59,065 bases of DNA from Trichoplax sp. H2 (lineage: Eukaryota): NCBI GenBank assembly GCA_003344405.1, contig NOWV01000114.1, positions 186,001 through 245,065 of the forward strand, written 5' to 3'. This document shows, piece after piece, positions 19,801-22,800 of the stretch. Made by a program: the position numbers and the translations under genes. The notes under the pieces are model-generated. The model was not told the DNA's origin. It saw only the letters and a list, made by a program, of their open reading frames with translations, and did not search any database. Positions within the stretch are counted from its first letter, which is position 1. Every line of letters starts with the position of its first letter.

Positions 19801-22800
19801 TAACGTTATCGTACACAACATTAACTATATTTTAAAAGGAATATCTGGTTTATTGACAAAAACTGCTGTGAATTAACACGATAAGCAGAATATGAAGATT
19901 ATGATATTTCATTTGTTGTAGGTCATTTCTGTTATTTGCATAGCTGTGTGGGCTATTAACATTGGTCATTTTTCTGACCCTATTCATGGTGGATCCTGGT
20001 TGAAGGGTGCTATTTACTACTTTAAAATCGCGGTAGCTTTAGCTGTCGCAGCTATTCCAGAGGGTTTGCCAGCCGTAATAACAACTTGTTTAGCGCTAGG
20101 TAACCGTTTGATATGAGAACTTTGTGAGGTGATTGGATTGATGGTATACAAATTATTGTAATATTCGTAGGTACTCGCCGTATGGCTAAGAAAAATGCCA
20201 TCGTGAGAAGTCTTTTTTCAGTGGAAACTTTGGGTTGTACTACAGTTATTTGTTCTGATAAGACAGGAACTCTCACTACGAACATGATGTCAGTTAGTAA
20301 GGTAAGCTGGTCTTTAATTCATTAGAATCATGCAGGAACATCAAAATTTCTATATTTATGGGACATACGTTCAATTTTTAGTTTTTCACTGTCGAAAGCA
20401 TTAAAGGAGATAAGACTAACCTTATCAAATTCTCAGTTGGTGGTTCGACGTATGAGCCGATTGGCGACGTGTAAGATATATTATTATATCAGTTATTATA
20501 ATGAATATATTGAGTTTCCGCGTTATTCACTTATAGAAAATCGATGAATGGAACAGAAATAAAAGACAGCGACCGAGAGAAATTCAGGGAACTTGCAACG
20601 ATATGTAGTTTATGCAACGATTCCAGTTTAGATTATAATGAAGTCAGTTACTCTACCTCTATTCAGTCTCATTAATACCTCTTAGTCGTGACTACTTATA
20701 TAACATTATTACATTTTTCATAGTTTAAGCGTTCTTACGAAAAAATTGGTGAAGCCACAGAAACTGCGCTATTAGTTCTTGTAGAAAAGCTAAATGTATA
20801 TGAAACCACTAAGGATGGTTTTTGTAAAGCACAATTGGCTAGTGTTTGCAACAACGTTATAAAATCTCAATTTAGGAAGGTCTGGACTCTTCTATTATAA
20901 TCTGAATAATATGAATTGCGCTAATAATCATTTTTAATTGGTAAGGAGTTTACTATGGAGTTCTCAAGGGATCGTAAATCTATGAGTGCATACTGCACTT
21001 CCATCGACGGAGAAAGTAAAGCAAAATTCGCAACCGGTCAAAAGATGTTTGTTAAGGTATACAGTAATCGTGTTTATTTAAAGTTTTATGTCGTCGGTGA
21101 TGCTAAATTTCATGCACGCGTCTAATTATAAACAATTGTTTAAACCGCCCTATAAACAATTAATATTTGCAGGGAGCTCCCGAAAGTATTTTGGACAGAT
21201 GTACTTATGTACGTCTCGCTGATCAAAGCAAAGTACCCATGACAGATAGCATCAGAGAACAAATTATGACTCAGACAATAGAGTATGGAACAGGTCAGTA
21301 CGTTAATCAATTATGAACACCTTATCTTGTTTTTATGAAAAATTTTTTCATTTAGGTGCGGACACACTCAGATGTTTAGCGTTGGCGACTGTTGATGATC
21401 CTGTGGATCCGAAAGATATGAATTTAGAAGATCCTGCTAATTTTTCAAAATATGAGGTAAGTATATGAGTTTATTGTAGCTCATTGATGGCTGCTTAGCA
21501 TTGATAATGTGATAATCGACAAAACTTGCTAATATGGAGTAATTGATTGATATTTTAATTTACTAATTAATTGTCTGCATAGAGCAATATGACTTTCGTT
21601 GGGGTAGTCGGAATGTTAGATCCGCCTCGAAAGGAAGTATATAATGCAATCCAGCAATGTTATAGAGCCGGTATAAAAGTAATAGTTATTACTGGCGATA
21701 ACAAAGACACTGCTGAGGCAATTTGTCGAAAGATTGGTGTCTTTGAACCTGATGAAAATACGACAGGTAGTTCAGTTAGTAAAAGAATAATCTGCCATTT
21801 ACAAATAATGAATTTCTTTATATTACGTTCACTTTTTTGGAAGGATTATCATATTCAGGAAGGGAATATGATCTATTGCCTCCAGAAGAACAGAAACAGG
21901 CTGCCCTTCGAGCAAGATTGTTTTCTCGAGTAGAACCGACACATAAAAGTAAAATTGTAGAGTACTTACAAAGTACAGGTCATATCTCTGCGATGACAGG
22001 TGATGGAGTCAACGACGCTCCTGCTCTCAAGAAAGCAGAGATTGGTGTTGCTATGGGATCTGGAACTGAAGTTGCTAAAAGCGCTTCTGATATCCACTAA
22101 CTAAAGTTTCTATACATGATGTTGTTAAAATTACCTATTTAAGATTCTTTTGTCACTGAAATGATGTCAACAGTCTATCCATTCTCTGAAGTTACGCAGT
22201 TCTTGGGTCCTGATTTGTCGATGGAATATCAATGTTTAGATTGCGAATTATTAGGTTTTCTAGTAACGTTTTCTTGCATTGATGTTTCATTTGACTACGG
22301 ATCTAAGAACAGAATAGCTGTATTTAGTTATCCTGTTCTACTGTTTTTCTGGGTTGAAAACTCGGCGTCTGATCAGTATTCGCGTTAGTGCTACATGCGA
22401 TCTATATAAAAACGAGAGCTAGGGTTAATCTTAACTACGCTTACAGATGGTATTGGCGGATGATAATTTTTCATCTATTGTTGCAGCTGTGGAAGAAGGG
22501 CGAGCAATTTATAATAATACAAAGCAATTTATTCGGTATTTGATATCTTCGAATATTGGAGAAGTTGTCAGGTTGGTCAACTTACTAAAGTACTTGTTTA
22601 CATTTTTCACGAATTTTTAATTGTACAAATAATATGATAACTGTACTAAGTAAATCTAGAATGAAACAATGATATCATTTATTGTCAAGTAGTAATAATA
22701 TGTATTTTATAGTATATTCTTGACTGCTGCGTTGGGAATGCCGGAATCTTTAATTCCTGTTCAATTATTATGGGTAAATTTGGTTACGGATGGATTTCCA

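What the first reader, a model, noticed from the sequence alone, without database searches (positions are those of the whole stretch)
22090..22444. SERCA gene depends on a minor-spliceosome (U12) AT-AC intron
Seen: the SERCA frame hits TAA at 22098-22100 (...AKSASDIH*) with no usable GT donor, and the next conserved block (MVLADDNF) starts at 22447. Removing 22090-22444 (ATATCCAC...aaTCTTAACtacgcttAC) gives TCT G|AG ATG = S-E-M and restores the canonical [13 protein letters not shown]. Known: ATATCC.., a CTTAAC branch site ~10 nt from the end and AC termini define U12 introns. The 5' site deviates at +7/+8 (AC instead of TT). Inference: this is the only non-GT-AG intron among the 23 coding introns. 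It could be an ancient intron lost or converted elsewhere (I do not recall one here in vertebrate ATP2A genes) and a rate-limiting control point for the ER Ca2+ pump. GT-AG-only gene predictors would mis-model this junction.
Basis: partly seen in the sequence, partly recalled or inferred. Interest (0 to 1): 0.75.

Follow-up and report, generated by a model that had tools for sequence, protein, structure and literature searches.

The report
Ancient minor intron in calcium-pump gene
The calcium-pump (SERCA) gene of the simple marine animal Trichoplax really does contain a rare AT-AC intron of the minor-spliceosome type; it appears to be an old animal intron that molluscs, a sea cucumber and probably corals still carry but mammalian lists lack, and it breaks many public gene models, though it is an ordinary member of a known class with no regulatory role shown.

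Summary
Observation confirmed. Intron 19 of 23 in the placozoan SERCA gene (22090-22444, 355 nt, phase 1) is removed at AT..AC in 3 of 4 public runs laid, from three studies; the fourth showed no joints. It has an ATATCC donor and a branch site 11-12 nt from the end, and U11, U12, U4atac and U6atac are all in the genome. So it is a U12-type intron; dependence on the minor spliceosome is inferred. Mis-predicted public proteins show the same break with a U12-type donor in 11 molluscs and a sea cucumber (AT start) and in coral-like fragments (GT start, a subtype switch). Human and mouse minor-intron lists hold no ATP2 gene. The T. adhaerens model loses 7 residues here. The +7/+8 deviation seems to be local drift: other putative minor introns in this genome also vary at +7 to +9. 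Rate-limiting control is unshown. The scan noted similar introns and model errors earlier in other genes of this genome (XPO7, VPS52, OLA1). New member of a known kind.

The parts
16844..23672 (+). SERCA (P2A Ca2+-ATPase) coding region, 24 exons, 1012 aa; apparently the only SERCA gene in G000
   Evidence: Model; 991 of 1002 columns identical to T. adhaerens P0121; next own-genome matches are far weaker; 15 junctions shown in RNA contigs, the other 8 rest on homology, GT-AG ends and, for introns 1-2, loose ends
21844..22089 (+). Exon 19, ending with the first base of Glu737
22090..22444 (+). Intron 19: U12-type AT-AC intron, 355 nt, phase 1; second longest of the gene (median 107 nt); single copy in G000
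22090..22098 (+). 5' splice site ATATCCACT: +1 to +6 match the U12 type, +7/+8 deviate
   Evidence: sequence; comparison with human/mouse sites listed; pairing count
22098..22100 (+). In-frame TAA reached if the intron is retained (739-aa product lacking the C-terminal membrane helices)
   Evidence: loss of helices follows from known SERCA topology
22429..22435 (+). Branch site TCTTAAC; candidate branch adenosines 22433 and 22434
   Evidence: pairs with the GUAAGGA box of this genome's U12; lariat not mapped
22443..22444 (+). 3' splice site AC, with no pyrimidine tract before it
22445..22571 (+). Exon 20, starting with the last two bases of Glu737
22071..22072 (+). Upstream GT that, joined to the AG at 22445-22446 (376 nt), explains the 7-residue deletion in the public T. 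adhaerens model; not among the RNA joints shown
22190..22339 (+). Imperfect hairpins inside the intron (region 22060-22470 folds at z = -2.67, 1 of 100 shuffles as good); role unknown

Best explanation
This is an ordinary U12-type intron of the AT-AC subtype, inherited from an early animal ancestor (at least the common ancestor of placozoans and bilaterians). U11/U12 recognises the ATATCC donor and the TCTTAAC branch site together, U6atac replaces U11 at the donor, A22433 or A22434 forms the lariat, and the first AC 11-12 nt downstream is the acceptor, rebuilding the Glu737 codon. If splicing fails, a stop three codons in gives a message that should be degraded. Shown: the junction, the signals, the snRNA genes. 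Inferred: the use of the minor spliceosome, the branch base, the decay. The site stayed AT-type in molluscs and a sea cucumber, became GT-type U12 in coral-like animals, and is missing in arthropod-like and flatworm sequences and from mammalian minor-intron lists. The Trichoplax donor drifted at +7/+8. Any limit on pump expression would be the generic, about twofold retention known for minor introns, not a dedicated switch.
For: Junction in 3 of 4 runs. Four snRNAs above Rfam cut-offs: U12 97.3, U11 99.2, U6atac 104.8, U4atac 59.2 bits. Defining features per PMC3584512 (passages): donor and branch sequences, no pyrimidine tract, branch 11-13 nt from the acceptor; met. Of 469 proteins held, 13 read through the site as D-I-L and 66 as G-I-L, the translations expected from G|ATATCCT and G|GTATCCT; 361 were canonical, 7 other, 22 lacked the motif. 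The D-I-L set holds 11 named molluscs, Apostichopus and one unnamed record. The fourth residue is compatible with T at +9 in 65 of 65 G-I-L and 12 of 13 D-I-L records that have one. Elysia crispata and Patella caerulea models are split into two genes exactly here. No ATP2 gene in human/mouse lists, with positive controls found.
Against: No knock-down or lariat data. The donor pairs with this genome's U11 at only 4 of 6 positions, and my crude pairing counts do not single out intron 19: GT-AG intron 10 scores higher with U11 (4 against 3.5) and intron 1 higher at the branch (7.5 against 6.5). The U6atac box is the CC variant, which fits the donor poorly. Cross-species evidence is from protein read-through, not DNA; it shows 5' ends only, the searches were aimed at read-throughs (best 120 of 5954 and 5384), and the G-I-L records are redundant (22 clusters) and unnamed.
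Confidence: 0.9

Rival explanations
1. A U2-type AT-AC intron, spliced by the major spliceosome, as in some sodium-channel genes.
For: The donor is weakened at +7/+8 and pairs poorly with U11 and the CC-variant U6atac. Such introns exist (PMC2831892, passages).
Against: Those introns have G at +5; this one has C5-C6, a U12 branch site at the U12 distance and no pyrimidine tract. Orthologous sites read as canonical U12 donors.
Confidence: 0.04
2. The intron is kept by selection as a rate-limiting or stress-responsive switch on SERCA output (retention, early stop, decay).
For: Unspliced contigs cover the intron in 3 of 3 spliced runs: depth 9.93, 30.8 and 124.4 beside junction depths 442.8, 439.6 and 441. 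In X4 and X7 this exceeds the 793-nt GT-AG intron 5 (5.06, 23.2). Long conservation; single gene. Review PMC4615840 (section 4) reports about twofold higher retention of minor introns.
Against: In X9 the intron lies below intron 5 (9.93 against 18). The tool warns that contig depth cannot rank parts of a gene, DNA may be present, and 111 pieces were not shown. The intron was lost or changed in several lineages. PMC10639083 (abstract and passages) argues that neutral processes explain much of minor-intron evolution.
Confidence: 0.2
3. The true junction is GT-AG (22071 to 22446, as in the T. adhaerens model) or AT-AG (22092 to 22446, giving S-D-M), or the site is an assembly artefact.
For: The public T. 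adhaerens protein lacks 7 residues here; S-D-M occurs in 8 of 115 homologues matched.
Against: RNA contigs of three studies give 22089/22445; the H2 protein reads S-E-M; contigs of the unspliced-looking run X5 cover the intron with one 1-base difference.
Confidence: 0.01
4. The intron arose independently in placozoans and in the other lineages, or recently from a mobile element.
For: Hairpins inside the intron; absent in several lineages.
Against: Same codon, same phase and U12-type donor in placozoan, molluscs, echinoderm and coral-like records; no second copy in G000.
Confidence: 0.03

Closest known systems
U12-type (minor) introns, AT-AC subtype
   Same: AT..AC ends, ATATCC donor, CTTAAC branch 11-12 nt from the acceptor, no pyrimidine tract, single minor intron among major ones (PMC3584512 passages).
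   Different: Donor reads AC at +7/+8 in place of TT; host gene is SERCA, which is absent from human and mouse lists.
Minor introns of voltage-gated Na+ and Ca2+ channel genes (SCN, CACNA1)
   Same: Ancient minor introns in ion-handling genes; proposed expression control (PMC8767276, search listing only; PMC2831892 passages).
   Different: Different gene family; those are kept in mammals, this one is not listed there; no functional test here.
AT-AC to GT-AG subtype switching of orthologous U12 introns
   Same: 36 clusters with both subtypes are reported in PMC2831892; here AT starts in placozoan, molluscs and sea cucumber, GT starts in coral-like records.
   Different: Inferred from read-through proteins, 3' ends unseen, coral identity inferred from exon similarity (58 of 58 residues for three records).
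CC-variant U6atac snRNA (Davila Lopez et al. 2008, PMC2396436)
   Same: This genome's U6atac has GCCGA for AAGGA, as published for Trichoplax, cnidarians and others (section 16).
   Different: The paper left the pairing unexplained; here six donors in the genome (one RNA-confirmed, five by homology) show no compensating G at +6/+7.

Membership tests
U12-type intron | Conserved 5' splice site RTATCC(TT) | tested here: met
   ATATCC at 22090-22095; only intron of 23 with RTATCC. +7/+8 deviate; 4 of 6 donors examined in this genome deviate somewhere in +7 to +9.
U12-type intron | U12 branch sequence 11-13 nt before the 3' splice site | tested here: met
   TCTTAAC at 22429-22435, adenosines at -12 and -11.
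U12-type intron | No polypyrimidine tract | tested here: met
   Read from the last 30 nt; judged by eye, not scored.
U12-type intron | Excised at the predicted AT-AC ends | tested here: met
   Joint 22089/22445 in 3 of 4 runs.
U12-type intron | U11, U12, U4atac, U6atac genes in the genome | tested here: met
   All above Rfam cut-off.
U12-type intron | Strong base pairing of the donor with U11 and U6atac | tested here: inconclusive
   4 of 6 positions with each; crude count does not separate it from all major introns; U6atac register recalled from human work.
U12-type intron | Position-weight score (intronIC or MIDB class) | not testable with these tools
   No intronIC or reference matrices available; it may score as 'minor-like' rather than 'minor'.
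U12-type intron | Splicing depends on minor snRNPs | not testable with these tools
   Needs knock-down.
U2-type AT-AC intron | G at +5 of the donor | tested here: not met
   +5 is C; feature from PMC2831892.
SERCA (P2A ATPase) gene | Full-length similarity to animal SERCA | tested here: met
   71% to Nematostella, 66% to a bat ATP2A1 model; exon 100% identical to the protein named SERCA-type in Trichoplax sp. H2.

The most novel reading that the evidence does not exclude
The intron is a selectively kept control point on the single SERCA gene of many invertebrates, shed in mammals and arthropods, and the Trichoplax donor ATATCCAC is tuned to the CC-variant U6atac (C at +8 pairing with G12), giving a natural test case for the unexplained way that variant reads 5' splice sites.
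Probability: 0.1. Interest if true: 0.65.

Novelty: new member of a known kind. Interest (0 to 1): 0.36.

Why it matters
Practical: the intron corrupts public SERCA models in T. adhaerens, 11 molluscs and a sea cucumber among the records seen (7-residue loss, insertions, truncation or a split gene), at a conserved stretch of the pump. Evolutionary: it adds a minor intron that human-centred catalogues miss, with one position showing retention, probable subtype switch, possible conversion and loss. It links minor splicing to ER calcium uptake in invertebrates, but only as a dependency; no regulation is shown. T. adhaerens has 121 minor and 193 minor-like introns in PMC11347168 Table S4, so one more is not surprising.

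Tried and rejected
Metagenome scan: 80 loci kept of 583; the 11 best-matching or otherwise chosen loci that I compared were transcripts or intron-poor genes with no break at the site, so they say nothing on age; the other 69 were not examined for this. U6atac box change: looked new, but is published. Compensation of the CC variant by donor changes: not seen in six donors. Two further RTATCC candidates tested (upstream in VPS35, and a second in the ALG6-like gene) gave no convincing join and were dropped before the count of six. Q-M before the downstream exon in Batillaria, Bulinus and Lottia models as proof of an AC end: rejected, since a predicted CAG|GT donor gives the same letters. Bat model P0004 breaks near the site but holds a second, contiguous copy; treated as uninformative. 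Plant models (P0012, P0237) break 10 nt upstream, a different position. Mobile-element origin: no second copy. Rfam on the window: nothing. Literature searches that found no description of this intron: (listings), supplements. The intron-level databases (MIDB, IAOD, U12DB, the FigShare tables of PMC10639083) and the PDF supplements of PMC10639083 and PMC7367187 were not read; the intron may be listed there for other species. Human Ensembl ids used were recalled. Structure and complex prediction were not used; they do not bear on the claim.

Full report
The window is G000:C147:186001-245065. The exon before the site is identical to a protein that NCBI names SERCA-type Ca2+-ATPase of Trichoplax sp. 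H2. The frame runs into TAA at 22098-22100; cutting 22090-22444 restores S-E-M. A 24-exon model gives 1012 aa with 22 GT-AG introns and one AT-AC intron, number 19, phase 1 in codon 737. It matches the T. adhaerens protein at 991 of 1002 columns. No second SERCA-like match of similar strength is in the genome.

Transcripts confirm the junction. Four of 22 listed runs were laid. X9 (on record as RNA), X4 and X7 (RNA by guess), from three studies, join 22089 to 22445 with AT..AC ends; X5 shows no joints and looks like DNA. Fifteen joints were shown and 7 were not.

The signals are of the U12 type. The review PMC3584512 (passages) defines the class by donor and branch sequences, lack of a pyrimidine tract and a branch 11-13 nt from the acceptor. 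Here the donor is ATATCCACT, the branch TCTTAAC at 22429-22435 with adenosines at -12 and -11, and the end is AC. U12, U11, U6atac and U4atac score 97.3, 99.2, 104.8 and 59.2 bits, all over cut-off; PMC2655684 (passages) reported the same set in T. adhaerens. Against: a crude pairing count with this genome's snRNAs gives only 4 of 6 donor positions with U11 and does not rank intron 19 first among the 23 for U11 or for the branch. U2-type AT-AC introns have G at +5 (PMC2831892, passages), which this lacks.

The +7/+8 deviation looks like drift. In four other gene families searched in G000 I found five putative minor introns by homology only: donors end +7 to +9 in TAT (VPS35), TTT and ATT (DERL2-like), TTT (CDC50) and TAA (ALG6-like). 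Two more candidates were dropped. So RTATCC is fixed and +7 to +9 vary in 4 of 6. The genome's U6atac has GCCGA where the Rfam consensus has AAGGA. This is the published CC variant, which PMC2396436 (section 16) calls difficult to explain; it was the only paper found for those terms. None of the six donors has a compensating G at +6 or +7. The SERCA donor gains one pair (C+8 with G12) in the register recalled from human work; one case is no evidence of tuning.

The intron is old. Reading into a donor G|ATATCCT gives D-I-L, into G|GTATCCT gives G-I-L. Two searches aimed at such records and three cluster look-ups brought the set to 469 proteins: 361 canonical, 13 D-I-L, 66 G-I-L, 7 other, 22 without the motif. 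D-I-L records are Batillaria, Sinanodonta, Potamilus, Tegillarca, Elysia marginata, E. crispata, Bulinus, Patella caerulea, Lottia, Pomacea, Nucella, Apostichopus and one unnamed fragment. Two of these are split into two genes at this point; an octocoral (Paramuricea) model also ends here. The G-I-L records are unnamed fragments in 22 clusters; their exons are nearest to Acropora or Pocillopora, three of them at 58 of 58 residues, though several tie with bilaterians. The fourth residue fits T at +9 in 65 of 65 G-I-L and 12 of 13 D-I-L records. One unnamed fragment reads G-N-N-P, which suggests a major-type donor at the same place. Genomic-looking fragments near arthropods, and two named flatworm records, run through the site and break only at the next intron. 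Human and mouse minor-intron lists hold no ATP2 gene while controls were found. Whether vertebrates keep a major intron here was not tested; from memory they have none. The simplest history: an AT-type U12 intron in an early animal ancestor, a switch to GT in stony corals, and repeated loss. These counts are selected, not a survey, show 5' ends only, and give no sign of the intron outside animals.

Gene models suffer. T. adhaerens TRIADDRAFT_28963 lacks 7 residues, as the upstream GT would give, so annotation-based catalogues probably count this intron as major (inference). The H2 model is right here but is only 467 aa long.

Regulation is unshown. Retention gives a stop after three codons with four introns downstream, a likely target of decay (inference). 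Unspliced contigs cover the intron in all three spliced runs at depths 9.93, 30.8 and 124.4 beside about 440 for the junction; intron 5 shows 18, 5.06 and 23.2. That is higher in two runs and lower in one, and contig depth cannot rank parts of a gene. PMC4615840 (section 4) gives about twofold retention as the class norm; PMC10639083 (abstract, passages) favours largely neutral evolution.

Verdict: a real U12-type AT-AC intron, one of over a hundred minor introns in placozoans (121 minor, 193 minor-like in PMC11347168 Table S4). I found no description of it in SERCA, but the intron databases that may list it were out of reach. New member of a known kind; interest 0.36.

Noticed in passing
L003:436-1300 (G000:C503:8305-9231): Five partial U6atac copies lacking the 5' end lie in tandem behind the full gene, about 230-370 nt apart; T. 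adhaerens has a similar cluster in PMC11347168 Table S7.
   Followed up: partly
L096, G000:C352:536547 onward (427 nt): Putative U12 intron in a DERL2-like gene whose only conserved join ends in GG (GT-GG termini), with a strong branch site; not checked against RNA.
   Followed up: partly
window 17250-17267: An 18-nt microexon in SERCA, supported by contig letters and loose ends.
   Followed up: yes
window 21313-23672: The public H2 protein P0003 is 467 aa and starts inside intron 16, so the gene is truncated or split in that annotation.
   Followed up: partly
proteins P0012, P0237: Plant ECA3-type models break 10 nt upstream of this site (after the K), pointing to a different, phase-0 intron nearby.
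   Followed up: no
protein P0011: Unnamed fragment reads G-N-N-P at the site, suggesting conversion to a major-type donor; lineage unknown (nearest Acropora, 55 of 58).
   Followed up: partly
window 22136-22146 and 22427-22437: An 11-nt inverted repeat could pair over the branch site; may be chance.
   Followed up: no
window 5383-59041: Neighbouring exons hit Pfam Syntaxin (5.4 kb), Ras family (12.7 kb, Ran by recall), Mod_r (30.4-31.4 kb), Peptidase_C1_2 (41.2 kb), Tcp10_C (48 kb), RF-1 (58 kb) and fructosamine kinase (58.7 kb); 47 of 96 ORFs scanned.
   Followed up: no
window 14600-14830, 16360-16650, 27100-27180: Runs of short ACAGT/GTACT repeats upstream and downstream of SERCA, with a 20-base N gap near 16364-16383.
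   Followed up: no
protein P0414: A record labelled Salmonella sp. clusters with sea-cucumber SERCA, probably a contaminant.
   Followed up: no
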